Notes under the pieces: model-generated
Database searches by the model: none
Told to the model about the DNA's origin: nothing
What the model saw: the letters and a program-made list of their open reading frames with translations, nothing else
Translations under genes and position numbers: made by a program
Assembly: GCA_964555945.1 (NCBI GenBank)
Contig: CAZKUL010000001.1
Span: 1 to 57,459 of the forward strand
Length of the DNA stretch: 57,459 nucleotides
From: an uncultured Planctomycetales bacterium
Lineage (GTDB): Bacteria > Omnitrophota > Gorgyraeia > Zapsychrales > Fredricksoniimonadaceae
Direction of reading: 5' to 3'
Shown here: in pieces, positions 1-36,322 of the stretch
Position numbering within the stretch: the stretch's first letter is position 1
How the letters are laid out: each line of letters opens with the position of its first letter

Positions 1-302
1 AATCTTTTATACCAGAATTATCTACGGCTGTCGAGTAGCTTCTCTTAATATCTATCGATGCGCTTACCATTATAATTAAAAACATATTCATTTTGAGGGT
101 TCCTTAGGGTGTTTATTAAGACAGTTTTAACCTGCTCATTTATAGGCAACTCTCTTTTTTCTCCATTCTTGGTTTCATGAAGGTATAGTATATTTCTCTT
201 AATATCCACATCCCGCCATTTTAAGCCTAAAATCTCTGCCTTCCTCATGCCTGTATTAAGAGCAACTATTACTATCCCTTGATGGCTTGAATTTTTATTT
301 GT
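1..302 (-). pseudogene. tyrosine recombinase (phage-type integrase) remnant, N-terminally truncated and frameshifted
   Basis: Minus-strand frame open 302..48 reads ..HQGIVIVALNTGMRKAEILGLKWRDVDIKRNILYLHETKNGEKRELP.., the box-I Arg region typical of tyrosine recombinases. An in-frame TAG at 303-305 leaves no N-terminal domain. After the TAA at 45-47 the family-like sequence continues in another frame (..IKRSYSTAVDNSGIKD) to the window edge. Confidence 0.6.
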
Positions 303-2346: not shown

Positions 2347-3615
2347 CTATCGATTCCTCAACGCTTCTGTAATTACTAATCGTGATGCCCTATATGCAGG
2401 ATAAAAAGCAGATAGCCCTCCTATGAGTATTGAAAAAATAAACGTGGAAAATAAAATTCTGGGGACAATCATAGGGTGAGACAACCATCCGACATTTCCT
2501 CCTGGCGGCGGGGGCATAGTAATGCCAATACAGGACACTATACGCACGATTGCACACCCTAAAATAACACCCAGAACGCCTCCTATAAACCCTAATCCAA
2601 TGCCCTCATAAAGAAATAGGACAACAACCCCTTTACTTCTGCTCCCCATAGCCATGATCGTTCCAATCTCACTGATCCTTTCCATCACTGACATACTCAT
2701 GGTGTTAAAAATACTCAAAACAACTACAATAAATATGATCACTTTCATGATCAAATAGAATTTCTTAAACAAATTAACAGTTTGTGTATAGAATTCCGTC
2801 AGTTCATCCCATGTCTTCATTTCTAAATCAAAATGCTTTTCTTGGAAAAGGGATTTTAATTTATTCTTAACTTCTTGTGTGTCGTCAGTATGATGCAGCT
2901 TTATCAACAAAGATTGAACAGATTCGGTATTAAGAAATTTTTGTGCTGTTTCCAAAGGCATTCTTAAAAAAAATTCATCAAAGTCTTTAGAAGATGTATA
3001 AAACACACCCCTGATCTTCATATCCAACGCTGTGGGAGAACCATCAACAGTATTCGTTAATAACGTAACAGTCGAATGAGCCTTAGCATCTATGCCAGCA
3101 GCAAGCCCTGCGCCTAAAATAACCCCATACTCATCATTACTATCAAGGCCTCGACCAGTCTTTAAAGTGGTCACCCCCTGCTTGACTCCTTCTTTATATG
3201 CTTTTCTCAAATCTGCTACTGCTTCTTTCGACAAAGTCCTTTCATAGCGAGGGTCCACCCCTTGTCCAATAAAAGAGACTGTATTGTTCCCCGTACTTAA
3301 AAGGCCGGAAAATTGAATGCGCGGCGTCACATAATTAACTTCCGGCAATTGACGTATTACCGATATTACTTCACCACTATTCTCAATTAAGTAATTAAAA
3401 GGGTCCGTCCTCCCTTTTTGATTGAATCCTATTTTATAAACTTGAATATGCCCGGTTTGCGCTTCAATAAAACCTTCTCTTAATTGTAAAAAGACATCTT
3501 CAAAAAAACCTCCTATAAAAATAATAGCCACACAACCAAAAACAATCGTCGAGATGGTTATTAAAGATCTCGTTCTATGACGGAAAATATTGCGGACGGC
3601 TAATTTCAAAATCAT
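2347..3615 (-). CDS. ABC transporter permease, FtsX/MacB-type with large periplasmic domain
   Basis: N-terminal TM, roughly 250-aa periplasmic domain, then 3 C-terminal TMs (FtsX fold). Start moved to MILKLAVRNIF (ATG 3615), which overlaps the ATPase stop as TAATG. Confidence 0.8.
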   Translation of the reverse strand: MILKLAVRNIFRHRTRSLITISTIVFGCVAIIFIGGFFEDVFLQLREGFIEAQTGHIQVYKIGFNQKGRTDPFNYLIENSGEVISVIRQLPEVNYVTPRIQFSGLLSTGNNTVSFIGQGVDPRYERTLSKEAVADLRKAYKEGVKQGVTTLKTGRGLDSNDEYGVILGAGLAAGIDAKAHSTVTLLTNTVDGSPTALDMKIRGVFYTSSKDFDEFFLRMPLETAQKFLNTESVQSLLIKLHHTDDTQEVKNKLKSLFQEKHFDLEMKTWDELTEFYTQTVNLFKKFYLIMKVIIFIVVVLSIFNTMSMSVMERISEIGTIMAMGSRSKGVVVLFLYEGIGLGFIGGVLGVILGCAIVRIVSCIGITMPPPPGGNVGWLSHPMIVPRILFSTFIFSILIGGLSAFYPAYRASRLVITEALRNR

Positions 3616-6256: not shown

Positions 6257-6349
6257 AAAAATTCTCCTTATAAGTTAACTTATTACAGCTTATCAATTGA
6301 TGGATATTTGATGTAGAGAAAAGCTATTGTGGAAGCACAAATGAAGGAA

Positions 6350-6393
6350 GAAAATTGCAGTTATGGACTTAAACCCTGCAAAATTTTTCAGGG
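6350..6393 (-). promoter_or_regulatory. triple-TGCA promoter/operator module, copy 1 (upstream of the YceI-ABC-OMP operon)
   Basis: Minus strand reads CCCTGAAAAATTTTGCAGGG-N13-CTGCAATTTTC. It shares core sequence and 10/21-bp spacing with copies at 14220, 17996 and 20412. Confidence 0.6.
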
Positions 6394-10299: not shown

Positions 10300-11079
10300 C
10301 TATCTAGCTTCTTGCATGAAATGCACTAAAGGCAAAATAATGCATTGTGGAAGAAAACGTACATTTATTGCCATTAACCTATTTAAAAAACCATGAACGG
10401 CAACAGTTTGTCCTTGTAACATCACCTTATACCCATAATGAGCAACCTCCTTAGGATCAGGAAGTGTTTGACCGTTTGTTAAACGAATTTCTTGGGGGAA
10501 GGTCGATATTTGAAAATTAGTTGCTGTTGGTCCGGGACATAAACATGTGACACTTACTCCAGTACCCTTTAATTCCTCAGAGATTGCTGATGAAAATGAC
10601 AGAATATATGCTTTTGTGGCATAATAAACAGACATTAAAGGACCAGGCTGAAAAGCCGCCGTTGAAGCCACATTCAATATTTTCCCTTTTCGGCGTTTGA
10701 CCATTCCAGGCAAAAAGAGTCGTGCTAAATTCGTCAAAGCAACAATATTTAGTTGTAACATTCGACCTTGCTTTTCCAAGTTTGAATCAACAAATTGCCC
10801 CCAGTCTCCTATTCCGGCATTATTTATGAGAACATCTACTTCTAAATTATTCCTTTTGATCTGTTCATAGACATACCCACAAGCCCCAGACTTCGATAAA
10901 TCACAAGCAATGACGTACACTTGGACTTTGTAAGTTAAGTATAAATAATCCCTAATTTCATCCAATTTAGATTTAGTGCGGGCTATAAGAATAAGATCGT
11001 ATTTATTCTCAGCTAATATTTTGGCGAATTCAAACCCTATACCATTGGAAGCCCCTGTGACAAGAGCTATTTTACTCAT
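10300..11079 (-). CDS. short-chain dehydrogenase/reductase (SDR)
   Basis: TGASNGIG cofactor motif, NNAG, catalytic YATKAY (YxxxK). Start moved to MSKIALVTGAS, which overlaps the stop of the upstream small ORF (ATGAGTAA). Confidence 0.85.
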   Translation of the reverse strand: MSKIALVTGASNGIGFEFAKILAENKYDLILIARTKSKLDEIRDYLYLTYKVQVYVIACDLSKSGACGYVYEQIKRNNLEVDVLINNAGIGDWGQFVDSNLEKQGRMLQLNIVALTNLARLFLPGMVKRRKGKILNVASTAAFQPGPLMSVYYATKAYILSFSSAISEELKGTGVSVTCLCPGPTATNFQISTFPQEIRLTNGQTLPDPKEVAHYGYKVMLQGQTVAVHGFLNRLMAINVRFLPQCIILPLVHFMQEAR

Positions 11080-11197
11080 TCGTATCGCCTGCATTGAGAG
11101 TTTCTTGACCATAAATACCCATCACAGACGCTAAAACAAGAACAAATATTGAAAATATAAAAATGATACCTGCTATAGATATGATTGCTAATTTCAT
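11072..11197 (-). CDS. 41-aa single-TM peptide (unannotated small ORF)
   Basis: AAAAGGAGACGAT-ATG Shine-Dalgarno. Product MKLAIISIAGIIFIFSIFVLVLASVMGIYGQETLNAGDTNE. Sits between two operon genes with its stop overlapping the SDR start. Confidence 0.45.
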   Translation of the reverse strand: MKLAIISIAGIIFIFSIFVLVLASVMGIYGQETLNAGDTNE

Positions 11198-11210
11198 ATC
11201 GTCTCCTTTT

Positions 11211-11963
11211 TTATTTCTTACCAATTTGTTGGGCAACCCCGCCTAACATATAATGCCTGTCATAAATATTTTTAAAACCTTCCCTAAACATCATTTGCAT
11301 AATTTCTTTGGAATCTGAGAAATATCTATTGGATATGCTTAAATAAGCAAAGGAATTATATTCATTACGATGAAAAAAAACCTTTCCCAGCCATGGCATT
11401 AATCTTTCATAATAAATTTGATAAAGAATTTTCTGCCATTTGCCTTCCGGCTTTCCTAAATCTAACGTGGTAAATATCCCGCCTGGTTTTAGTACCCGAT
11501 GCATTTCTTTAAGACCCAACGAAATATCCTTTAAATTACGAAGGCCAAAACACATCATAATGGCATCAAAGGTGTTGTCCTCAAATGGCAATTCCAAAGC
11601 GCTGGCCTCGTAAAAACTGATATTATTTAATTCCAGCTGATTGACCTTATTCTTGGCTAACGATAACATCTCTTCTGCAACATCTACCGCATCAATATGC
11701 AACCCCTTGCATCGCTGACTCATATAAATGGCCATATCCCCGCTTCCGGTACAGACATCCAACACCCTCATGCCCCGCTTTAAATTTAAACTACTAATAG
11801 AGGCATCTCTGTACTCTTGCTGCTGGCCTAAAGAAATAACATCATTAAGTTGATCGTATTTAGGAGCTAATTGATTAAAAAATAATTTGTTAGCTTCTTC
11901 CCAGGAATCTGTATGAAAATACTTATCAAAACCAACCTGTTTCATTATTTCCATATCTTTCAT
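11211..11963 (-). CDS. UbiE/MenG-type SAM-dependent methyltransferase
   Basis: LDVCTGSGD motif I and a UbiE-like N-terminus (FDKYFHT..). Start placed at MKDMEIMKQV after the AAAGGGA Shine-Dalgarno, 13 nt past the PKS stop. Confidence 0.75.
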   Translation of the reverse strand: MKDMEIMKQVGFDKYFHTDSWEEANKLFFNQLAPKYDQLNDVISLGQQQEYRDASISSLNLKRGMRVLDVCTGSGDMAIYMSQRCKGLHIDAVDVAEEMLSLAKNKVNQLELNNISFYEASALELPFEDNTFDAIMMCFGLRNLKDISLGLKEMHRVLKPGGIFTTLDLGKPEGKWQKILYQIYYERLMPWLGKVFFHRNEYNSFAYLSISNRYFSDSKEIMQMMFREGFKNIYDRHYMLGGVAQQIGKK

Positions 11964-11976
11964 AGCAATCCCTTTC

Positions 11977-13011
11977 CTATTCTGACCAGCGTAAACAGGC
12001 CGCATTTACACTAACCCCTGCCCCATAACTAACCATTAACGCAGGTGTTCCATCTATAAATTTTGTCGTATCCATCCATCGTTTTAGGATAAATAAAACA
12101 CAGGGGGACGACATGTTTCCATATTCAGAAAGAACATAACGGCTTGCCATTAGAGATGTAGAGTTTATATTTAATTCCTGTTGTAAGGTATCTAAAATCA
12201 ACCGCCCACCAGGATGAAAAACTAAAATATCAGGCAATTGAGTTATTTGCATCCGTGCCAAAAGTTCTTTAACACCTTGGGCTACAATTTGAGGGACATC
12301 CTTTCCTAAAACATTGTTCAATCTGGAATTGACAGTCTTGAATCTCAATTGTTCTCTGTGTTCTGGCACCAGCAAACATCCATGCCGTTCTAATTGCCAA
12401 CCTGGTTTTTTACAATTAGTAACTATGCAAGCGGCTGCCCCATCCCCAAAAATGGAATTTGATAGTATTAAATCAATAGCTTCCCCATGAACAAAAGTTG
12501 CAGACGACACTTCAACCGCAATAAATAAAACATTTGCATTTTTCTTCGTTAATAAAAATTGATCGGCAATACGTAATCCTGGCACCGCTGCACCACATCC
12601 GTGACCAACAACATCCAGTATGAATATGTCTGGACTGATGCCCAATACTTCCCCTACATGCGATGTTAATCCAGGGCACAAATAGCCGGTGCACGTTGTA
12701 ATAATTAGTCCATCAATTTGCCCAATCCCAAGGCCTACGGCTTTAAGGCATTTTTGAGCAGCTTGGACAGCCAACTCAGTTGCCATTTTTTCAAATCGAA
12801 AGACAGATTCATCGCAATTCTCAGTGGCTAACACCTCCATACTATCTAAAGCAAATGTCCGGGAACGAACTCCATCGTCAGAAAGGAAGCGATTATAGAA
12901 TTTCTTACTTCGCTCAGAGTAGTTTTGGAACCTCATTAATTCGATTAACTCTTTTTGATCCTTGCGTAATGAAGGATTTGCCGTTTCTACACAGGTAATT
13001 CTAGACTTCAC
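11977..13011 (-). CDS. type III polyketide synthase (chalcone-synthase superfamily)
   Basis: 344 aa with Cys-His-Asn triad contexts VGHGCGAAVPG, VFHPGGRLILD and YGNMSSPCVLFIL. Confidence 0.9.
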   Translation of the reverse strand: MKSRITCVETANPSLRKDQKELIELMRFQNYSERSKKFYNRFLSDDGVRSRTFALDSMEVLATENCDESVFRFEKMATELAVQAAQKCLKAVGLGIGQIDGLIITTCTGYLCPGLTSHVGEVLGISPDIFILDVVGHGCGAAVPGLRIADQFLLTKKNANVLFIAVEVSSATFVHGEAIDLILSNSIFGDGAAACIVTNCKKPGWQLERHGCLLVPEHREQLRFKTVNSRLNNVLGKDVPQIVAQGVKELLARMQITQLPDILVFHPGGRLILDTLQQELNINSTSLMASRYVLSEYGNMSSPCVLFILKRWMDTTKFIDGTPALMVSYGAGVSVNAACLRWSE

Positions 13012-14149
13012 TTAATACCCCCTTCGCATATACAATCTTGTTTTTTGTAACCCTTGGGCGAGAATAGCTCATCGCTGTTCGCCTAAACATCTTATTGATA
13101 TCTAAAAAACGAATTATCGCATCTGCAACCCAAGGAAAATGTGCAACACGACCAAATAAATCAGCCAGACGTCGTTGTTCCCCGAAATGCTTCTGATATT
13201 CATCAGTGTATGCCTTAAGCCTTTCGGCGTCATGGTTATATGTCGTTATTGACTGAGCTAATAATTGACCGCTTTGTAAAGCCACACTGATTCCGACACC
13301 CATCACGGTATCAATAAACGCAGACGAATTACCGACACGCCATATACCATTTTCATAATGAACAATTGAATGTCGTACCTGAATTTGAATAGCCTTCCAA
13401 GGAGATACCCTTGTGGCCCCAATCATTACATTCTGCAAATGTGAGCTCTCCTTGATCCAACCCATCAGCACCTTTTCAGGATCTTGCCCTTTAGCTTTAA
13501 AATATTTAGAGTCTACTACATAACAGACATTGACTTGGTTCTTTTCAAATGGATTGATACCAACATGCCCGCCCTCACAGCAATGAAGCATCACCCGTTT
13601 AAATGATTGAGGAATCCCCTGATAGATGGCGCAAATACCAAATTGAATTTTTGTTAATTTTACCGATGGAGAATGCTGGCCACTAGCATCAATAAGATGG
13701 CGAGTTCGCAAATTAAATTCTTTATTATTTCCATAATGGTCAACCGTTACTTCAAATCCGTTGCCATTGTTGTATATATTCCGAGCCTGAGCCCCCTCAT
13801 ACACCTCAATGCCCATTGCCTTAACACGATCTAACAATAGCGAATCAAATACCTTTCTACTTACCCCTAATGCTTCACCTTCTATCGGTATGACTGTACT
13901 TGCCCCCTTAGAGGATGTAAGTAACGACTCCTCAATAACGCGAGCCCCTTCTTCCAAAAGTTTTGACCAAATCCCTAAATCAAATAACATTGCTTTATTT
14001 TCAGGACCAATAAAACCACCGCATGTCTTGTGCCGAGGGAATGCCGATTTATCAATAATAACAACCTTCCATCCACGCTTCGCTAAACCTAAAGCACAGG
14101 ATGTCCCAGCTGGTCCTGCGCCAATAATTAATGCTTCAACTGTTGTCAT
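13001..14149 (-). CDS. FAD-dependent oxidoreductase/hydroxylase (geranylgeranyl-reductase-like fold)
   Basis: N-terminal dinucleotide fold IIGAGPAGTSCA...VVIIDK. 382 aa. First gene after motif copy 2. Confidence 0.8.
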   Translation of the reverse strand: MTTVEALIIGAGPAGTSCALGLAKRGWKVVIIDKSAFPRHKTCGGFIGPENKAMLFDLGIWSKLLEEGARVIEESLLTSSKGASTVIPIEGEALGVSRKVFDSLLLDRVKAMGIEVYEGAQARNIYNNGNGFEVTVDHYGNNKEFNLRTRHLIDASGQHSPSVKLTKIQFGICAIYQGIPQSFKRVMLHCCEGGHVGINPFEKNQVNVCYVVDSKYFKAKGQDPEKVLMGWIKESSHLQNVMIGATRVSPWKAIQIQVRHSIVHYENGIWRVGNSSAFIDTVMGVGISVALQSGQLLAQSITTYNHDAERLKAYTDEYQKHFGEQRRLADLFGRVAHFPWVADAIIRFLDINKMFRRTAMSYSRPRVTKNKIVYAKGVLSEV

Positions 14150-14219
14150 GAAAACAGTTTATCAAGAGGCCAAGCACTTCAGATAGATGAAAATCATGAT
14201 AAAGACAAAAATTAGGGAA

Positions 14220-14263
14220 GAAAATTGCAGATTCAAACAAAAACTATGCAAAATCTTGCAGGG
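14220..14263 (-). promoter_or_regulatory. triple-TGCA promoter/operator module, copy 2 (upstream of the T3PKS operon)
   Basis: Minus strand reads CCCTGCAAGATTTTGCATAG-N13-CTGCAATTTTC, with TGCA cores starting 10 and 21 bp apart. Lies 70 nt upstream of ATG 14149. Confidence 0.6.
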
Positions 14264-17874: not shown

Positions 17875-17995
17875 ATGTCCATTCCTCATAAAGGTATAGT
17901 CTCGGCTTTTAAAAAATGCCATTAAACTATTTTTTTAATATAACTAATTTTTTTAGATCAATTAATACTAAATTCTAGTTAGAGAGAAAATTAAT

Positions 17996-18041
17996 GAAAA
18001 AAATTGCAGATGTGGTCAAAAAGAGTGCAAATTCTTGCAGG
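17996..18041 (-). promoter_or_regulatory. triple-TGCA promoter/operator module, copy 3 (upstream of the oxygenase/ELM1/647-aa operon)
   Basis: Minus strand reads CCTGCAAGAATTTGCAC-N16-CTGCAATTTTTTTC with 10/21-bp core spacing. Starts 6 nt after the regulator gene stop. Confidence 0.6.
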
Positions 18042-18046
18042 AACAA

Positions 18047-20266: not shown

Positions 20267-20411
20267 GAAACACGCTTTCTTATGAATAAAATACTTTGGT
20301 TTATACCCTAACTAAAGAGATTAAAACACTTCATAGATTGAATAATGTACTATTATTTTACCATAAATAAAAAAGACTACGATAAAACCAATATATCTGA
20401 TAACAAACAAA

Positions 20412-20459
20412 GAAAAAAATTGCAGAAATTAATGATACACCATGCAATTTTATGCAGGG
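20412..20459 (-). promoter_or_regulatory. triple-TGCA promoter/operator module, copy 4 (upstream of the membrane protein-HK-RR operon)
   Basis: Minus strand reads CCCTGCATAAAATTGCATGG-N14-CTGCAATTTTTTTC with core spacing 10/22 bp. Confidence 0.55.
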
Positions 20460-20504: not shown

Positions 20505-20663
20505 TTAAATTTCAATCAAGTTGATTACAGGTATTTCAATCATGAACACTAACCATGAATGGCATACCAAACCAGATAAAACCGAAAATAGTGCTATTTC
20601 GGACCAAAGCAACGAACGATTTTCTTCGCTTAACTTTGCACCTTTTTTAATGAGTTGAATCAT
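20505..20663 (-). CDS. 52-aa small ORF with strong Shine-Dalgarno (hypothetical membrane peptide)
   Basis: AAATGGAGGTGAGGT-ATG. Product MIQLIKKGAKLSEENRSLLWSEIALFSVLSGLVCHSWLVFMIEIPVINLIEI. Below the ORF-track size cutoff. Confidence 0.4.
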   Translation of the reverse strand: MIQLIKKGAKLSEENRSLLWSEIALFSVLSGLVCHSWLVFMIEIPVINLIEI

Positions 20664-20780
20664 ACCTCACCTCCATTTATGTATGCCCTCTTTCGGAATA
20701 ATGACGCGGTCTTAAAATTTTTGGTGTCCAAATTCGATCTACATTAGGTTACTGGTAGTTAAAAAATCTTAAAAGATGTT

Positions 20781-20813
20781 AAAACAAAAAAGCTCCGTTT
20801 ATCGACGGAGTTT
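20781..20813 (-). terminator. intrinsic terminator following tRNA-like half A
   Basis: Minus strand reads CTCCGT-CGATAA-ACGGAG followed by CTTTTTTGTTTT. Confidence 0.7.
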
Positions 20814-20858
20814 CTTGATTTCTTTAAAAATAAAGGAAATAGGAAATTGGCCGGATTG

Positions 20859-20899
20859 CATTGCGAACGACGCGCTCTCCCAAACCAAGCTACCGACCC
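20859..20899 (-). repeat. tRNA-like 5' half, copy A (acceptor 5' strand, D arm, anticodon stem-loop only)
   Basis: Minus strand reads GGGTCGGTAGCTTGGTTTGGGAGAGCGCGTCGTTCGCAATG, identical at 38 of 41 positions to 34263..34223. There is no T arm or 3' acceptor strand downstream. Confidence 0.7.
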
Positions 20900-21018
20900 T
20901 TTATAACTCTTTTATTATTAATTACTTGCGACAATAAAAATTTTTTCTATTTTCTAATTTAGAGTTGGTGTCCAAATTGTGTCCGTTACGCCCTACAAAA
21001 TTAAAAGGTTCTTTAAAA

Positions 21019-21056
21019 CGTTATTAACGATGCGCTCTCCACTAAGTTAAACACAC
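21019..21056 (-). repeat. degenerate third tRNA-like 5' half
   Basis: Minus strand reads GTGTGTTTAACTTAGTGGAGAGCGCATCGTTAATAACG and aligns with the D-arm/anticodon-arm part of copies A and B. It is followed by an AATTTGGACACCAA box at 20965-20978. Confidence 0.45.
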
Positions 21057-21182
21057 TATAAATCGATTTATTGATTAGAAATTATACAACAAATCACCCT
21101 ATTGTGTATTAATTTCTCATTCGCTATTAACTAGCAAGGGATAGAACGAGTAATCATTATCTACCTATCTCATTCTTGGAAT

Positions 21183-28433: not shown

Positions 28434-28490
28434 AGTATACCCAGTGACGTATTAAAGGGACGTTAGAATAGAATAAGAATTTTATTATTA
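28434..28490 (-). promoter_or_regulatory. activator-type promoter cassette, copy R1
   Basis: Minus strand reads AATAATAAAATTCTTATTCTATTCTAACGTCCC-N17-TGGG-TATACT, homologous to the two cassettes at 31614-31742. The -10-like TATACT is at 28434-28439. Confidence 0.5.
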
Positions 28491-28551
28491 TTTATTTTTA
28501 AGACAAGCTTTTGATGGGAGCTTCAATGCGGAATGGTAATGGGAATAAAAT

Positions 28552-29316: not shown

Positions 29317-29988
29317 TTATTCATCTTTAAATATATAACCAACTCCCCGCATAGAATGGATCAGTTGTTTCGTGTGGCCATAATCAATTTTCTTTTTGAG
29401 ATAATTGACGTAAACATTAATAACATTAGAAAACGCTTCGAAATCACCGTCCCAAACGTGTTCAGAAATCATAGTCCGGGTTATTACCTCCCCAACATTA
29501 CTCATAAAATATTCTAATAATGAGTATTCCTTGGGAGTAAGTTCAATCTCTTTGCCTGCACGATAAGCTTTACGCGTTAATTGATTAAGTTCCAAATCAG
29601 CAATTCTAAGTTGAGGTGTTTTTTCAGTATTTTTACGCCTAAGCAGAGCACGCACGCGGGCCAAAAATTCAGGATACGAAAATGGTTTGGTAATATAATC
29701 ATCCGCTCCCGAATCCAGTCCTGTAATCTTATCTTCTTCCTCATCCCGGGCTGTTAGCATAAGAATGGGCACATCGTTTTGCTTCTTTCTTAAATTCCGG
29801 CAAATAGAAATTCCATCCTTACCAGGAAGCATGATATCAAGAATGATCAGATCATAAGGATTCGACTCAGCTATAAATATTACTTCGTCGCCATTATCAG
29901 CAACGTCAACGGCATAATTGGACTCTTTCAGACTTCTTTTAATGATAGCTGATAGCTTTCTTTCGTCTTCAACAAGCAGTATTCGCAT
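29317..29988 (-). CDS. OmpR/PhoB-family response regulator, heavy-metal (CusR/CzcR)-like, orphan paralog
   Basis: 223 aa; REC plus winged helix. LTARDEEEDKITGLDSGADDYITKPFSYPEFLARVRALLRR. Collinear and highly similar over its full length to 33278..33949. Confidence 0.85.
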   Translation of the reverse strand: MRILLVEDERKLSAIIKRSLKESNYAVDVADNGDEVIFIAESNPYDLIILDIMLPGKDGISICRNLRKKQNDVPILMLTARDEEEDKITGLDSGADDYITKPFSYPEFLARVRALLRRKNTEKTPQLRIADLELNQLTRKAYRAGKEIELTPKEYSLLEYFMSNVGEVITRTMISEHVWDGDFEAFSNVINVYVNYLKKKIDYGHTKQLIHSMRGVGYIFKDE

Positions 29989-31613: not shown

Positions 31614-31661
31614 CATTTTTACCAAAACAAACATAAGAGGAACGTTAAAATAAAATAAGAG
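31614..31661 (-). promoter_or_regulatory. activator-type promoter cassette, proximal tandem copy
   Basis: Plus-strand unit taccaaaacaaacataagaggaacgttaaaataaaataagag. On the minus strand it ends ..TTTTGG-TAAAAA (extended -10-like), about 35 nt upstream of ATG 31578. Confidence 0.5.
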
Positions 31662-31694
31662 TTCTCTTATTCGTATAGAACCCCCATTATTGTC

Positions 31695-31742
31695 AAATGA
31701 TACCAAAACGTAGATAAGAGGAACGTTAAAATAAAATAAGAA
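31695..31742 (-). promoter_or_regulatory. activator-type promoter cassette, distal tandem copy (81-nt period)
   Basis: taccaaaacgtagataagaggaacgttaaaataaaataagaa matches the proximal unit at 38 of 42 positions. On the minus strand it ends ..TTTTGG-TATCAT. Confidence 0.5.
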
Positions 31743-31784
31743 TTTTATTATTTTTCTGTTAAGAAATGATTAAGATTGTGCGGA

Positions 31785-33281
31785 TTACAGCTTGTGAAAC
31801 GGCAGGATGACCGTAAATGTAGAACCTTTATTCAATTCACTTTCAAAAACAATATCACCGCCATGGCTTCTGGCGACAACTCTAGCCATACTTAAACCCA
31901 GGCCACTGCCGCCGATATCTTCCTGATCCATTCGGCGAACACGGTAAAACTTCTCAAATATCCGCTCCTGATCAGCGGTCGCAATACCAATACCCGTATC
32001 TTTAATTGAGATAAAAATTTGTTCTCCCCGAACTTCAGCAAGAATTTTAATATCCCCCTGCTCCTTGGTGAATTTGACCGCATTATGAAGTATATTGAAA
32101 AAAATCCTTCGCAAATGTGTCGTATCCCCTTGCAACAAAACCGAATAATCAGGGATTACCAATTCAAGACTGATATTCTTTTGATCCGCCAACACTTTAG
32201 CATGCTGATAAATTTCCTTAAGAAATTTGATAATATCCACTTCTTCCATCTTAAAAATGTTGAGCTTATACTCAAACTTTGCCAGGAGAAGTAAGTCTTT
32301 AATAGTTTTTATAAGCCTATCAATTTCTCCAAGAGCGACATTCATGACTCGTTTGTCATCCTCATTTGAATTTTCACCAACCAAGCCTAACTCCAGCTCA
32401 CTTTTGATGATGGCCAAAGGTGTTTTTAATTCATGTGCAACATGAGAGCTAAATTCATTAACATGGGCAAATGATTTCTCCAAACGTTCAATCATACGAT
32501 TGAATGATCCAACCAACTCTTCCATCTCATGATCTAGTTTCTGCTGCGGAATCCTCATATGCAGATTCGTTTGAGAAATATTATTAGCTGCCAGGGTCAC
32601 GTCTGTCACCGGCTTAAGGATTCTTCGAGTAAAAAACGATCCCATAAAGAGCGTCATTAATAGAATAACCACAATACCGATAATAATAAAAATTAAAAGA
32701 TGGGAAAGGATTCGCTGTATAGACGTCAGCGGTGTGGCCAGTTGTAAAACAAAAGAATTACGGTCAGAAAATCTAAAAGGATAACTTATCCCATAAAATG
32801 CTGCTTTGTTTAATTTCAAATTAGTAAAAAGAATTGTATCGGAATGAGGTGGAAATTGAGAATTAAAATCCACTTCAATCTCATTTGTCAGGTTATCTGA
32901 TCGTAAACGAACCCTCCCTCTTGGACTCAAAATTCGAAAAAAATCATTTCCCAAGCCTAATGATTTACTATCTTTTGTCCATAATTGATCAATAATCCCC
33001 TTACCAGAGATGACTTCCTTGCCAGGAACGTTCTCGTCACTGGTAGATAAGAATTTATTCATCAACGAGGTGGCATACGTATAATTCTGGGGAGAAATTG
33101 ATGCATAGGCATCAAGAAACGCGTCAATTTGTCCAGCCTTGACTTTCAAATCTTGCTTTGCTTCTTCATATAGTGTCGCTCGAACTGTGTCAAATAAATA
33201 TATACTGAAACAGGTAAGGATCAGACATAAAATGCTCGAATATAAAACGCTCGTTTTAAAACGTATTGAACGGGTTTTCAT
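31785..33281 (-). CDS. sensor histidine kinase, heavy-metal (CusS/CzcS)-like
   Basis: 498 aa with 2 TMs, a periplasmic domain, HAMP, H-box SSHVAHELKTPL and HATPase boxes (NILHNAVKFT, DTGIGI, GSGLGLS). ATGA overlap with the regulator gene. Confidence 0.85.
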   Translation of the reverse strand: MKTRSIRFKTSVLYSSILCLILTCFSIYLFDTVRATLYEEAKQDLKVKAGQIDAFLDAYASISPQNYTYATSLMNKFLSTSDENVPGKEVISGKGIIDQLWTKDSKSLGLGNDFFRILSPRGRVRLRSDNLTNEIEVDFNSQFPPHSDTILFTNLKLNKAAFYGISYPFRFSDRNSFVLQLATPLTSIQRILSHLLIFIIIGIVVILLMTLFMGSFFTRRILKPVTDVTLAANNISQTNLHMRIPQQKLDHEMEELVGSFNRMIERLEKSFAHVNEFSSHVAHELKTPLAIIKSELELGLVGENSNEDDKRVMNVALGEIDRLIKTIKDLLLLAKFEYKLNIFKMEEVDIIKFLKEIYQHAKVLADQKNISLELVIPDYSVLLQGDTTHLRRIFFNILHNAVKFTKEQGDIKILAEVRGEQIFISIKDTGIGIATADQERIFEKFYRVRRMDQEDIGGSGLGLSMARVVARSHGGDIVFESELNKGSTFTVILPFHKL

Positions 33282-33949
33282 TCTTCCTTAAGGGTATAAC
33301 CAACCCCCCGCAAAGTATGGATCAACTGTTTTTTATGATCGTTATCAATTTTCTTTTTAAGATAATTGATATACACATTAATTACATTGGAAAAGGATTC
33401 GAAATCATCATTCCAAACGTGTTCAGAAATCATTGTCCGGGTTACTACCTGCCCGACATTGAGCATTAAATACTCCAAAAGAGAATATTCCGTTGGTGTG
33501 AGTTCAATCTCTTTGCCCGCACGAGACACTTTTCTCGTTCGTTGATCAAGTACTAAATCTACGACTTTAAGACTGGTTGATTTTTCAGTATTCTTACGTC
33601 TAAGTAAGGCACGTACACGGGCTAGAAATTCAGGAAAAGAAAATGGCTTAGTTAGATAATCATCAGCTCCTGCATCAAGGCCCGAAATCTTATCCTCTAC
33701 ATCATCACGAGCTGTAAGCATGAGAATGGGCGTATCGTTCTTTTTCTTTCTTAAATTTCGGCAAATTGAGATCCCATCTTTCCCAGGTATCATGATATCA
33801 AGGATGATCAGATCATAAGAGTTCGTTTCAGCCAAAAAGAGAGCATCATCGCCATTATCAGCAAGATCAACAGCGTAATGAACTTCTTTAAGACCTCTTT
33901 TGATAACGGCCGATAACTTCCTTTCGTCCTCAACAAGTAAAATCCTCAT
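33278..33949 (-). CDS. OmpR/PhoB-family response regulator, heavy-metal (CusR/CzcR)-like
   Basis: MRILLVEDERKLS..., LTARDDVEDKISGLDAGADDYLTKPFSFPEFLARVRALLRR, and a winged-helix C-terminus ..LRGVGYTLKEE. Confidence 0.9.
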   Translation of the reverse strand: MRILLVEDERKLSAVIKRGLKEVHYAVDLADNGDDALFLAETNSYDLIILDIMIPGKDGISICRNLRKKKNDTPILMLTARDDVEDKISGLDAGADDYLTKPFSFPEFLARVRALLRRKNTEKSTSLKVVDLVLDQRTRKVSRAGKEIELTPTEYSLLEYLMLNVGQVVTRTMISEHVWNDDFESFSNVINVYINYLKKKIDNDHKKQLIHTLRGVGYTLKEE

Positions 33950-33995: not shown

Positions 33996-34024
33996 ATGAT
34001 ACATCAAAAAAATAAAGCAGTCAA
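33996..34024 (-). promoter_or_regulatory. sigma70-type promoter for the RR-HK operon
   Basis: Minus strand reads TTGACT (34024..34019), a 17-nt spacer, then TATCAT (34001..33996). AAGGAG Shine-Dalgarno before ATG 33949. Confidence 0.55.
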
Positions 34025-34143
34025 TTTCATAGGGCTTATTGTCTTAGTCGGGGTCGTTATTGTACTATTGCTCACACTTAATTTTGGTGTCTAAATTGTG
34101 GCTGTTCGCAATCGAAACAACCAATAAAATCCACAAGTATCCT

Positions 34144-34177
34144 AAAACAAAAAAACTCCATTTCTCGATGATGGAGT
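34144..34177 (-). terminator. intrinsic terminator following tRNA-like half B
   Basis: Minus strand reads ACTCCAT-CATCGAGAA-ATGGAGT followed by TTTTTTTGTTTT. Relative to copy A the stem carries a compensatory G:C to A:T change. Confidence 0.7.
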
Positions 34178-34222
34178 CTAATATCACTGTAATTTCAAAG
34201 GGTTAGAAAAAGGGCTGGGGGT

Positions 34223-34263
34223 CATTGTGAACGACGCGCTCTCCCAAACTGAGCTACCGACCC
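34223..34263 (-). repeat. tRNA-like 5' half, copy B
   Basis: Minus strand reads GGGTCGGTAGCTCAGTTTGGGAGAGCGCGTCGTTCACAATG: acceptor 5' strand, D arm AGCTCAGTTTGGGAGAGC, and an anticodon-loop-like TTCACAA. Nothing downstream can pair with GGGTCGG. Confidence 0.7.
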
Positions 34264-34520
34264 GAAATTTATTTCAATTTCTATTTCAAAAAATTAGACT
34301 CGACCTGCGTTATCATTATTTTTCTTAGAACATTTCCAGATTAATTTGGACGCTGTGACCTTTCTTTAACTTTTTCTAAAGAATTAGAACGCCCCCCGAT
34401 ATTCGAAATCGGTTTATACAATAAATCTCTTGGTTGTATATCGATTTTTTAGACAACTTCCCCCTAATTTAAATCCTTATAGTTGAGGGACTCCATAATT
34501 TCATTTAATAAAGAGATATT

Positions 34521-34548
34521 TTGAAAATCGGCGTATGGTGTATACAAT
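34521..34548 (+). promoter_or_regulatory. sigma70-type promoter for 34589..36322
   Basis: TTGAAA (34521-34526), a 16-nt spacer, then TACAAT (34543-34548). AGGAG Shine-Dalgarno 7 nt before the GTG at 34589. Confidence 0.45.
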
Positions 34549-34588
34549 AAGTGAGATTTCGGAAAAAAGAAGGTAGCAGGAGCCAACC

Positions 34589-36322
34589 GTGTTATTCATA
34601 GATTACTTCAAGAAAAGAGGCGCAAGTTTAGTTTTTTGTCTCACTTTTCTGGTCTACAGCCCGATGTTGTTTAATAATTATGTTGGGGATGATTACCATG
34701 TTCTGGCAGGGAACACATTCTACCGTTCATGGCATAATATCCCAAGCGTATTTGGGAAAGAAAGCATTACGAACACGCGGGAAAGGATTTTTAGCGACAA
34801 ATCCCAAACTAATTACGGCACCGGAAGGGATTCTTACCGGCCCATTTCGAATCTAACCTATTTCCTTGATGGGTACTTATTTCCTGGCGAGCCCTGTGGC
34901 TCTCATCTTATCAATATATTGATCCATAGTTTCAATGCAGTTCTGATTTATTGGATGGTCACCCAAATCTTCTCTTCTTGGTCCTTGGGTATTCTCGCTG
35001 GGCTTCTCTTTGCTTTACATCCAATCCAGTCAGAAGCTGTAGCGGTCATTAGCTTTCGATCGGATATAGTGACCGGCATGTTTGTTTTGTGCTCATTTTG
35101 TTTGTGGATTAAATTTAGAAAAAGTAATTATGAAAGGCACCGCTATTACTGGGGCTCCTTAGCATCATGTTTTCTGGCGCTGCTGAGTAAGGAATCCGCC
35201 TTTACCTTGCCATTCTTATTCTTACTTTTCGACCAAATCTTGGATCCACCCGCGCTTCAAAAACAAAGAGAAATTTATTATTTTGGTTTTATCCTGGTTT
35301 TTATTCTTTACGTTTATCTTTATTTTGTCCTGTTCCCCAACATCTATCATCCATTTCACTGGTTAGGGGACTCTCCCACTAATCACTGTCTTGTCATTGG
35401 GTACATATGGTATGGCTGCTTAATCAATGTATTATTGCCTTGGACAGTAAAAATGATACCAGCACAACATTCCCCCCCTGTCCCCCTGGCAGTGAGTCTA
35501 CTGTCTATGGAAGCAGGAATTGCATTTATAATGTTTGCAACCAGCACCTATTTCATGTGGCATAAACATAAAAAATGTCTTTTTTTCTTAGGCTGGTATA
35601 TTATTTTTTATCTTCCCGTTTCAAATATGTTTCCAATCGTTAACCCTATGGCGCACCGTTATATGTATTTGCCTTCAATAGGATTATTGATTATCATAGC
35701 CTTCTGCTTATATCATGCCTGCAATAGTGCGTTCCTTAAGAAGCATCTACCCTATTTATCACGCATGCTGCCTGCTGCCATCATTGTGATCTGCCTGACT
35801 AAATCCCTATTTTTAGTTGGTGACTGGAAAAATAATTTTGATCTCGGTATCGCCTGGGTCAGGGATTATCCTAAGGATCACCAGGGATATGCTGTGGTGG
35901 GCGGAGAATACTTTGCCAAGGGAGATTTTAAAAAAGCCGAAGAATATCTCGGAAAGAGCATTCAATTGGGTGGACTTATGCCCAAAGAACTCATCCTATT
36001 GGCAACATGCTATCTGAAGCTTGGAGAAGATAGTGCCGCTGAATCACTACTTGAAAAGGAAATTTTATACTACCCTGACTATTACCTTCCTTATTTATAT
36101 TTGGGCGAAATATATTACAGACACCAGCACTACGTCCAAGCACAGACAATGTTGAAGAGCGCTTTGACTTTAAATCCCAGACAAAGAATGAACTATACAG
36201 TTTTGATGGAAGATTATTTAAAATTAAACCAACTAAAATCTGCAACGGATTTAATCATGAAAGCCCATCTATACCTGAATAAAAGAGATGTATTGGAACT
36301 TAATCAACTTTTAAAAACTTAA
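34589..36322 (+). CDS. polytopic membrane protein with C-terminal TPR domain (TMTC/PMT_2-like GT-C glycosyltransferase)
   Basis: 577 aa with a GTG start. N-terminal motif NNYVGDDYHVL, about 11 TMs, the motif NPMAHRYMYLPSIG, and C-terminal TPR repeats. Confidence 0.65.
   Translation: MLFIDYFKKRGASLVFCLTFLVYSPMLFNNYVGDDYHVLAGNTFYRSWHNIPSVFGKESITNTRERIFSDKSQTNYGTGRDSYRPISNLTYFLDGYLFPGEPCGSHLINILIHSFNAVLIYWMVTQIFSSWSLGILAGLLFALHPIQSEAVAVISFRSDIVTGMFVLCSFCLWIKFRKSNYERHRYYWGSLASCFLALLSKESAFTLPFLFLLFDQILDPPALQKQREIYYFGFILVFILYVYLYFVLFPNIYHPFHWLGDSPTNHCLVIGYIWYGCLINVLLPWTVKMIPAQHSPPVPLAVSLLSMEAGIAFIMFATSTYFMWHKHKKCLFFLGWYIIFYLPVSNMFPIVNPMAHRYMYLPSIGLLIIIAFCLYHACNSAFLKKHLPYLSRMLPAAIIVICLTKSLFLVGDWKNNFDLGIAWVRDYPKDHQGYAVVGGEYFAKGDFKKAEEYLGKSIQLGGLMPKELILLATCYLKLGEDSAAESLLEKEILYYPDYYLPYLYLGEIYYRHQHYVQAQTMLKSALTLNPRQRMNYTVLMEDYLKLNQLKSATDLIMKAHLYLNKRDVLELNQLLKT

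What the first reader, a model, noticed from the sequence alone, without database searches (positions are those of the whole stretch)
34084..34263. Noncoding region B: second tRNA-like 5' half + terminator module, with a compensatory stem change and no upstream gene to terminate
The segment 34263..34223 matches copy A at 38 of 41 positions, with anticodon-loop-like TTCACAA. The next ~45 nt share nothing with copy A. The terminator is then conserved again, with a compensatory pair change (CTCCGT/ACGGAG in A, CTCCAT/ATGGAG in B) and the same TTTTTTTGTTTT tail. An AATTTAGACACCAA box follows.

The nearest upstream gene (34589..36322) is on the opposite strand, so this terminator can only stop a transcript that begins within 34264-34588. 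That supports an independent small transcription unit. A TAAATT -10-like hexamer ends 2 nt before the GGG start.
Basis: seen in the sequence. Interest (0 to 1): 0.7.

Follow-up and report, generated by a model that had tools for sequence, protein, structure and literature searches.

The report
Displaced tRNA half marking island edge
This stretch is the orphaned front half of an alanine tRNA gene, pushed aside when a mobile DNA island inserted into that gene and now joined to the island's conserved end, which carries a transcription stop signal; it is a scar of a known process, not a new kind of RNA gene.

Summary
Window 34263..34221 (- strand) matches positions 1-43 of tRNA-Ala(CGC) at 42 of 43 bases. 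It is followed by a hairpin plus T-run and by the palindromic box at 34097..34084. Copy A (20899..) has the same layout.

The interpretation needs changing. The unit is about 190 nt long and recurs in related Omnitrophota contigs. Its non-tRNA part (the "arm") is also found fused to the 5' halves of tRNA-Ser(UGA) and tRNA-Thr(UGU), always breaking at tRNA positions 39-43. In locus L140 a Thr 5' fragment plus arm lies 11.4 kb upstream of a tyrosine integrase gene, and an intact tRNA-Thr follows 80 nt after that gene. This is a complete island flanked by a 40-nt direct repeat. L125 and L136 show 5' fragment, cargo, then intact tRNA-Ala and rsmE. The window itself starts inside an integrase pseudogene (302..12) on the same strand.

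Region B is therefore most likely an attL-type junction: a displaced 5' tRNA-gene fragment joined to an island arm. The Islander survey lists 159 such islands among 3919. The terminator probably stops transcripts from the orphaned tRNA promoter. An independent functional sRNA is not excluded, but I found no support for it.

The parts
34221..34263 (-). Displaced 5' fragment of tRNA-Ala(CGC), positions 1-43: acceptor 5' strand, D arm, and anticodon arm up to 4 nt of its 3' strand. The middle anticodon base has changed from G to A.
   Evidence: 42 of 43 identical to intact tRNA-Ala(CGC) in L125 and L042. ARAGORN and Rfam find no tRNA here.
34202..34220 (-). Start of the island arm: CCCCAGCCC, which can pair with the acceptor 5' strand, then the U-rich TTTTTCTAAC motif.
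   Evidence: Conserved in type-2 copies L131 and L132. A related TTTTTCTAAC-like motif occurs in most copies. RNAfold predicts a closing stem.
34178..34201 (-). Beta allele of the middle segment of the arm (CCTTTGAAATTACAGTGATATTAG).
   Evidence: Shared with L129, L130, L131 and L132. Copy A carries the alpha allele.
34144..34177 (-). Intrinsic-terminator-like hairpin (7-bp stem, 9-nt loop) followed by TTTTTTGTTTT.
   Evidence: Predicted in the MFE and centroid folds. Conserved in 16 alpha/beta copies, with one double change G:C to A:T in B and L131. The scan tool missed it only because it allows loops of at most 8 nt.
34098..34143 (-). Type-2 spacer of the arm, containing the hairpin GGTTGTT..AACAGCC at 34122..34100.
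   Evidence: Conserved in L131, L132 and L133.
34084..34097 (-). Box AATTTAGACACCAA, an imperfect palindrome (TTTRG-ACA-CCAAA) that ends the conserved arm.
   Evidence: Three copies in the window, all on the - strand. Present at the end of nearly every arm, including the Thr and Ser junctions.
34055..34078 (-). Decayed D-stem/anticodon-arm-like piece after the box (AGTGTGAGCAATAGTACAATAACG), homologous to A'.
   Evidence: Read from the sequence and compared with 21040..21019 and with the post-box sequences of L129 and L133.
34296..34311 (-). Possible older, more decayed 5' fragment (B'): AACGCAGGTCGAGTCT. Moderate confidence.
   Evidence: Resembles GGGTCGGG.. pieces upstream of the modules in L131, L132 and L136. 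In L136 a TTGTATAAT lies 17 nt upstream of it.
34413..34427 (-). GATTTATTGTATAAA, a decayed homologue of the GATTTGTTGTATAAT promoter found upstream of copy A and of intact tRNA-Ala genes.
   Evidence: The intact version scores 10 of 12 in the promoter scan at 21108..21081.
20859..20899 (-). Copy A: displaced tRNA-Ala(CGC) 5' fragment, positions 1-41, with two D-arm changes.
   Evidence: 39 of 41 identical to the intact tRNA.
20721..20858 (-). Copy A arm: closure CAATCCGGCC, alpha middle segment, terminator at 20811..20781, type-1 spacer, box at 20734..20721.
   Evidence: It is 94% identical to the L141 arm and 91% to the L138 arm.
20965..21108 (-). Region upstream of copy A: promoter TACACA-16-TATAAT (21108..21081), decayed fragment A' (21040..21019), box (20978..20965). 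Homologous to the ~225 nt upstream of the intact tRNA-Ala in L125 and L136.
   Evidence: 81% identity over 226 nt to the L125 tRNA upstream region.
12..302 (-). Tyrosine integrase pseudogene: part of the catalytic domain with in-frame stops and no N-terminal part. It runs off the window start.
   Evidence: tblastn with the L140 island integrase gives 46% identity over residues 179-269, E = 3e-20. Pfam PF00589 is recorded for the 67-aa fragment in L145 and L146.

Best explanation
Region B is an attL-type junction left by site-specific integration of a genomic island into a tRNA-Ala(CGC) gene of an Omnitrophota bacterium.

Proposed mechanism:
1. A tyrosine integrase recombines the island's attP with the anticodon-loop region of the tRNA gene.
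2. attP carries its own promoter and a copy of tRNA positions 1 to about 40.
3. The island-borne 5' half joins the chromosomal 3' half and keeps the tRNA gene functional.
4. The chromosomal 5' half, still attached to its old promoter, is displaced to the far end of the island.
5. There it abuts the island's conserved arm: a U-rich stretch, a hairpin plus T-run, a spacer and a palindromic box.

Repeated insertions produce a same-strand series of such fragments. In the window this series is B', B, A', A, then an integrase pseudogene at the left edge.

Shown: the identity of the tRNA part, the break at positions 39-43, the same arm on three different tRNAs, complete islands with an integrase and an intact tRNA in relatives, and an integrase remnant in the window.

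Inferred: that recombination was catalysed by these integrases, that the crossover lies in the anticodon loop, that the arm's terminator stops transcripts from the orphaned tRNA promoter, and that the box is a protein-binding or regulatory site.
For: 1. B matches tRNA-Ala(CGC) positions 1-43 at 42 of 43 bases and A matches positions 1-41 at 39 of 41. Similarity to the intact genes in L125 and L042 stops there.
2. The whole ~190-nt module recurs in 10 metagenome loci. nhmmer E-values reach 1e-59.
3. The same arm is fused to a tRNA-Ser(UGA) 5' half in L138, preceded by TATAAT 11 nt upstream. It is also fused to a tRNA-Thr(UGU) 5' half in L140, with nhmmer E = 7e-20.
4. L140 is a complete island. 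The Thr fragment at 2487-2525 and the intact tRNA-Thr at 13910-13985 share a 40-nt perfect direct repeat on the same strand. A Phage_integrase gene at 12774-13829 ends 80 nt before the tRNA. The cargo includes a RelE gene (toxin-antitoxin), IS21 and ars genes.
5. L125 and L136 have the order module, cargo with HigBA, intact tRNA-Ala, rsmE, all on one strand. Homology between the two loci starts 1 nt before G1 of the fragment.
6. Integrase remnants lie next to 5' fragments: L133 1027-1245, 155 nt upstream of G1, and window 302..12 on the module strand.
7. All copies within each locus have the same orientation.
8. The arm is 80-94% conserved in copies where the tRNA part is absent or decayed.
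9. The intact tRNA-Ala in L134 has a mismatched hybrid anticodon stem (CCTCG/CGATG), as expected if two halves from different sources were joined.
10. This configuration is a known class. Islander requires a 5' fragment to lie upstream of the intact tRNA gene, and it lists 159 islands with a 5' fragment among 3919, as well as tandem arrays (PMC4383910).
Against: - No intact tRNA-Ala gene and no intact integrase lie in the 57-kb window. For the window itself the island model therefore rests on analogy with relatives and on a pseudogene that runs off the edge.
- The 13.3 kb between B and A carries ordinary-looking genes (RND efflux, two-component systems) and is syntenic with L130. If it is an island, it is old and fixed.
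- No empty-site allele was found.
- Most displaced fragments are still 100% identical to the tRNA. In L136 both the fragment and the tRNA share a lineage-specific D-loop variant. Simple decay of a relic does not predict this.
- Recombination itself was not observed.
Confidence: 0.8

Rival explanations
1. Region B is an independent small RNA gene. A promoter just upstream starts transcription at GGG, the terminator ends it near 34144, and the ~120-nt RNA with a tRNA-like 5' domain acts in trans, for example as a tRNA mimic or decoy. This function could have been co-opted from an insertion scar.
For: - A conserved hairpin plus U-tract with one compensatory change.
- A predicted stem that closes the tRNA-like part into a mini-tRNA lacking the T arm.
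- 9 of 11 complete Ala fragments are 100% identical to the tRNA.
- The fragment and the tRNA share a D-loop variant in L136.
Against: - The promoter scan finds no - strand promoter in 34264-34588, and TAAATT is only 2 nt from G1.
- Upstream flanks are unrelated among copies.
- The fold energy of B is no better than shuffled sequence (z = +0.76). For A, z = -1.57.
- The arm is conserved without the tRNA part in four copies.
- Gamma-type arms lack the hairpin.
- The variants in the closing strand are all transitions to wobble pairs. Five of the six possible transitions on that strand keep pairing, so they carry little weight.
- No Rfam family matches.
Confidence: 0.1
2. Region B is a cis-acting leader or attenuator. 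Transcription from an upstream promoter runs through the tRNA-like domain, and conditional read-through of the terminator controls the downstream gene. That gene is the OmpR-type regulator in B and a small membrane-protein ORF in most other copies.
For: - The module is always on the same strand as, and directly upstream of, the next gene.
- In L130 and L132 the box lies 5 nt from the ribosome-binding site, with no obvious promoter between the terminator and the ORF.
- L125 and L135 have an inverted second box just before the ribosome-binding site.
Against: - In B a promoter-like site (TTGACT-17-TATCAT, 34024..33996) lies between the box and the regulator gene, so read-through is not needed.
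- No alternative antiterminator pairing is conserved.
- The downstream genes differ among copies: a regulator, the small ORF, RelE, a 135-aa ORF.
- The tRNA part is dispensable for conservation of the arm.
Confidence: 0.06
3. Region B is a pseudogene formed by duplication of the tRNA-Ala gene followed by internal deletion of the variable loop and T arm, with no mobile element involved.
For: - The closure strand (CCGACC-like) resembles the tRNA 3' acceptor strand CCGATCC.
- The trailer of the intact tRNA in L134 resembles the gamma middle segment.
Against: - The same arm follows the 5' halves of tRNA-Ser and tRNA-Thr. The tRNA-Ser junction has no acceptor-complementary closure.
- Integrase genes or remnants are adjacent.
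- L140 has a 40-nt direct repeat bracketing an integrase-bearing island.
Confidence: 0.03

Closest known systems
Genomic islands integrated in tRNA genes with a displaced 5' fragment (Islander class; anticodon-centred attP site 'A'; Hudson, Lau and Williams 2015, PMC4383910)
   Same: - An intact tRNA gene plus a cognate end fragment in the same orientation, with the 5' fragment upstream.
- A tyrosine integrase inside the island.
- A break near the anticodon loop.
- Tandem arrays.
- Toxin-antitoxin genes and other accessory cargo.
   Different: - This is the minority configuration: 159 of 3919 islands have a 5' fragment.
- The lineage is Omnitrophota.
- The island arm carries a conserved hairpin plus T-run right after the fragment, and a palindromic box.
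- In the window only remnants are present: the integrase is a pseudogene and the intact tRNA is not in view.
dusA-specific integrases and their islands (Farrugia et al. 2015, PMC4482086)
   Same: The element inserts into the 5' end of a gene. This point comes from the abstract only. That the island supplies a replacement 5' end is my recollection and was not checked.
   Different: The target is a protein-coding gene, not a tRNA gene. I did not test whether the integrases are related.
Split tRNA genes of Nanoarchaeum equitans (from my own knowledge)
   Same: A stand-alone tRNA 5' half ending near the anticodon loop, followed by non-tRNA sequence.
   Different: That system needs a separately encoded 3' half with a complementary leader and an archaeal splicing endonuclease. 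The window has no 3' half, and the host is a bacterium.
tRNA-derived SINEs of eukaryotes (from my own knowledge)
   Same: A dispersed repeat whose conserved block starts at tRNA position +1 and continues into a tRNA-unrelated body.
   Different: SINEs are retroposons with an internal Pol III promoter. Here the copies are same-strand arrays next to integrases and intact tRNA genes, and there is no reverse transcriptase.

Membership tests
tRNA-gene-integrated genomic island (Islander signature) | An intact tRNA gene plus a cognate fragment, same orientation, same replicon | tested here: inconclusive
   Met in the relatives L125, L136 (Ala) and L140 (Thr). In the window no intact tRNA is present. 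It is predicted to lie beyond coordinate 1.
tRNA-gene-integrated genomic island (Islander signature) | The fragment is an end fragment of the tRNA gene, not an internal piece | tested here: met
   B and A start at G1 and run to positions 43 and 41. The Thr fragment in L140 covers positions 1-39.
tRNA-gene-integrated genomic island (Islander signature) | Correct configuration: the 5' fragment lies upstream of the intact tRNA gene | tested here: met
   True in L125, L136 and L140. In the window the fragments lie upstream, on the - strand, of the integrase pseudogene at the left edge.
tRNA-gene-integrated genomic island (Islander signature) | A tyrosine integrase gene inside the island | tested here: inconclusive
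   Intact in L140 at 12774-13829, PF00589. Fragments occur in L133 and in window 302..12. No intact integrase is found among the window ORFs of at least 110 aa. L125 and L136 islands have none detected.
tRNA-gene-integrated genomic island (Islander signature) | Island length 2-200 kb | tested here: met
   B to A is 13.4 kb. A to the window edge is at least 20.8 kb. The L140 island is 11.4 kb, L125 is 7.9 kb and L136 is 5.9 kb.
tRNA-gene-integrated genomic island (Islander signature) | Demonstrated excision or integration (attP/attB junctions, or an empty-site allele) | not testable with these tools
   No circular junction or empty site was recovered.
Functional tRNA gene | A complete cloverleaf with T arm and 3' acceptor strand | tested here: not met
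   ARAGORN finds 0 genes and Rfam has no hit even at E <= 10. No T-arm motif or 3' half is present in the window.
Rho-independent terminator | A G+C-containing hairpin followed directly by a U tract | tested here: met
   B has a 7-bp stem, a 9-nt loop and T7GT4. A was flagged by the scan. The feature is conserved in 16 copies. Termination activity was not tested.
Independent bacterial sRNA gene | Its own promoter at a suitable distance, and a discrete transcript | tested here: inconclusive
   No promoter match on the - strand in 34264-34588. There are no expression data, so the transcript cannot be tested here.
Split tRNA gene (Nanoarchaeum type) | A matching 3'-half gene with a leader complementary to the 5'-half trailer | tested here: not met
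   No 3' half of tRNA-Ala is present in the window, allowing up to 3 mismatches.

The most novel reading that the evidence does not exclude
The displaced halves are not inert scars. Each keeps a tRNA promoter and gains an island-supplied terminator, so the cell would make several ~120-nt RNAs that begin with an authentic tRNA-Ala 5' half closed into a T-arm-less mini-tRNA. Selection or gene conversion would keep them identical to the working tRNA, as the shared D-loop variant in L136 suggests. They could act as decoys or regulators for tRNA-binding factors or for island genes.
Probability: 0.08. Interest if true: 0.6.

Novelty: new member of a known kind. Interest (0 to 1): 0.27.

Why it matters
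It explains a puzzling feature, a half tRNA followed by a terminator with nothing to terminate, as the edge of an integrated island. It shows that this part of the window is a same-strand series of such scars ending in an integrase pseudogene.

For mobile-element specialists it documents, in the little-studied Omnitrophota, an island family of the minority type that replaces the tRNA 5' half. The family reuses one conserved arm on at least three tRNA identities.

For annotation, it warns that these fragments should not be called tRNA or sRNA genes without expression data.

Tried and rejected
- ARAGORN and Rfam at gathering and permissive thresholds found no tRNA or known RNA family. The weak BSnc120 and RsaE hits are only the terminator hairpin.
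- My single genome-contig scan was flooded by genuine tRNA-Ala(CGC) genes, because AATG after the anticodon loop is normal for that tRNA. It still produced L042, which has an identical 5' half.
- Split tRNA: no 3' half or T-arm motif in the window.
- Covariation in the acceptor-like closing stem was rejected as evidence, because all variants are transitions to wobble pairs.
- The formal pair count on the terminator was dropped. MAFFT placed the 3-nt loop insertion inside the stem, so I counted by eye.
- My first guess that L131 is the orthologue of the B locus was wrong. The flanking proteins do not match.
- I considered the box as a -35 element or a sigma-54 site. This does not fit, because in L130 and L132 the box lies 5 nt from the ribosome-binding site.
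- Integron attC or cassette array: I considered this because of the arrays and toxin-antitoxin cargo, but I did not pursue it. No IntI and no R''/R' motifs were evident.
- Two viral-contig scans for the arm found nothing.
- The look-up to extend the window leftward gave only 49 extra bases.
- A literature search found no description of this element in Omnitrophota.

Full report
**Observation**

On the - strand, 34263..34221 reads GGGTCGGTAGCTCAGTTTGGGAGAGCGCGTCGTTCACAATGAC. It matches copy A (20899..20859) at 38 of 41 positions, and no such match occurs in shuffled sequence. The hairpin at 34177..34155 (ACTCCAT/ATGGAGT), the T-run to 34144 and the box at 34097..34084 are all present. The G:C to A:T double change relative to copy A is real. 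ARAGORN and Rfam find no tRNA or known RNA family. The window holds no tRNA 3' half.

**What the tRNA part is**

A genome scan returned mostly genuine tRNA-Ala(CGC) genes, which shows that the anticodon arm CGTCG-TTCGCAA-TGACG is the normal form of that tRNA. One hit, L042, is a 39% G+C MAG contig. Its intact tRNA-Ala(CGC) has a 5' half identical to the module. B matches this tRNA at 42 of 43 positions and A at 39 of 41, and similarity ends at positions 43 and 41. A protein from a related contig is named by NCBI as coming from Candidatus Omnitrophica.

**The module is a family**

A metagenome scan designed to exclude intact tRNAs gave 10 loci, each with a ~190-nt unit. The unit consists of:
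- the tRNA 5' half;
- a short strand able to pair with the acceptor 5' strand;
- a TTTTTCTAAC-like stretch;
- a middle segment in alpha or beta form;
- the hairpin plus T-run;
- a spacer in two forms;
- the palindromic box TTTRG-ACA-CCAAA.

The window's A is (1, alpha, 1) and B is (2, beta, 2). A profile built from these copies finds further whole, partial and decayed copies, always on one strand within a locus.

**Context evidence that decides the case**

1. L125 and L136 carry a module, then cargo that includes a HigBA toxin-antitoxin pair, then an intact tRNA-Ala(CGC), then rsmE. All are on one strand, with the module 6-8 kb from the tRNA. Homology between the two loci begins 1 nt before G1 of the fragment.
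2. The ~225 nt upstream of the intact tRNA in L125 contains a TATAAT promoter, a decayed fragment A' and a box. It is 81% identical to the region upstream of window copy A. Copy A therefore sits where the relative has the whole tRNA.
3. In L138 the same arm follows a tRNA-Ser(UGA) 5' half, and in L140 it follows a tRNA-Thr(UGU) 5' half. Both break at positions 39-43.
4. L140 is a complete island. A 40-nt perfect direct repeat links the Thr fragment at 2487-2525 to the intact tRNA-Thr at 13910-13985. A PF00589 integrase gene ends 80 nt before that tRNA. The cargo includes a RelE gene (toxin-antitoxin), IS21 and ars genes.
5. tblastn with the L140 integrase hits L133 155 nt upstream of its module. 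It also hits window 302..12 on the module strand (46% identity, E = 3e-20), where the gene has in-frame stops and lacks its N-terminal part. Stored Pfam hits confirm PF00589 for that fragment.
6. No intact recombinase is found among the window ORFs.

**Interpretation**

These facts fit the known signature of integrase-mediated insertion into a tRNA gene, in the configuration where the island replaces the 5' part. Islander accepts exactly this layout, with the 5' fragment upstream of the intact gene. It counts 159 such islands among 3919 and also records tandem arrays (PMC4383910).

B is then the earlier 5' half of tRNA-Ala, displaced and joined to the island arm. A is the next one in the series. 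The segment from A to the window's left edge is a roughly 21-kb island that ends in a decayed integrase, and the tRNA is predicted to lie just outside the window.

The arm's hairpin plus T-run would stop transcripts coming from the orphaned tRNA promoter. That accounts for a terminator with no upstream gene. The role of the box is open. It is palindromic, and in some loci it sits next to the ribosome-binding site of the first island gene. I infer an arm-type or regulatory protein site, but I did not test this.

**Against an independent sRNA**

- No - strand promoter lies in 34264-34588.
- TAAATT is only 2 nt from G1, whereas intact genes and better-preserved fragments have TATAAT 11-17 nt upstream.
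- Upstream flanks are unrelated among copies.
- B's fold energy is ordinary (z = +0.76).
- The arm remains 80-94% conserved in four copies without a tRNA part.
- Gamma-type arms lack the hairpin.
- The regulator gene downstream of B has its own promoter-like site at 34024..33996.

**What remains unexplained**

- Most displaced fragments are still identical to the tRNA. In L136 the fragment and the tRNA share a D-loop variant that is absent from L125. This needs gene conversion, circulation of the element within one lineage, or selection.
- The 13.3 kb between B and A looks like ordinary chromosome and is syntenic with L130. Any insertion there is old.
- I could not see beyond the window edge, and I found no empty site.

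**Verdict**

The feature is a displaced tRNA-gene 5' fragment plus island arm. It is a new member of a known kind and of modest interest.

Noticed in passing
window 12-302 (- strand): A tyrosine integrase pseudogene runs off the left edge of the window. It is 46% identical to the L140 island integrase over residues 179-269, has in-frame stops and lacks the N-terminal part.
   Followed up: yes
window 20505-20663 (- strand); L127 498-914, L129 1461-1871, L132 676-1092 and others: A family of 135-147-aa predicted membrane proteins with no Pfam match (N-terminus M..LIKK.AKLSEEN.. or MLKIIKNF.AKLANHNYRV) is the first gene after most modules. The window copy is truncated to 52 aa. 22 homologues were found, one from an Omnitrophica MAG.
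   Followed up: partly
window 6336-6393, 14206-14263, 17985-18042, partial copy at 20399-20426: A repeat family of about 58 nt containing TTGCAG..CTGCAA. Each copy lies just upstream of a - strand operon. It may be a shared operator or promoter.
   Followed up: no
window 28438-28498, 31620-31680, 31701-31761: An AT-rich repeat (..GGAACGTTAAAATAAAATAAGAAT..) occurs in three intergenic places around the porin and histidine-kinase genes, including a tandem pair 81 nt apart.
   Followed up: no
window 29317-29988 and 33278-33949 (- strand): Two paralogous OmpR-type response-regulator genes, 78% identical over 300 nt. One lies directly downstream of module B.
   Followed up: partly
L134 804-878: An intact tRNA-Ala(CGC) has a mismatched anticodon stem (5' strand CCTCG, 3' strand CGATG). 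This is what would result if two halves from different sources were joined at the anticodon loop.
   Followed up: partly
L136 9765-9805 and 15663-15703, compared with L125: The displaced fragment and the intact tRNA share the D-loop variant AGTTTTGGTA in L136 and AGTTTGGGA in L125. The two copies appear to evolve in concert within each genome.
   Followed up: partly
L133 ~1300-1330; L134 ~975-1005; L128 ~3085-3110; L140 13815-13840: Short direct repeats lie near island arms and integrase ends: TTTAGCACA twice or three times, and TAGTCCCCA twice in L140. They could be integrase arm-type binding sites. The window has none.
   Followed up: partly
L127 ~440-475, L133 ~1610-1635, L136 9960-9985, L138 ~2240-2265: Small palindromic repeats GTCATTCCCGCG(N4)CGGGAAT(C/G) and GTCATTGCGAGGAGCCGAAGGCGACGC lie between the box and the next gene in several relatives.
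   Followed up: no
window 10300-14149 (- strand): A gene cluster with a type III polyketide synthase, a UbiE-like methyltransferase, an FAD monooxygenase and a short-chain dehydrogenase lies inside the putative 21-kb island.
   Followed up: no
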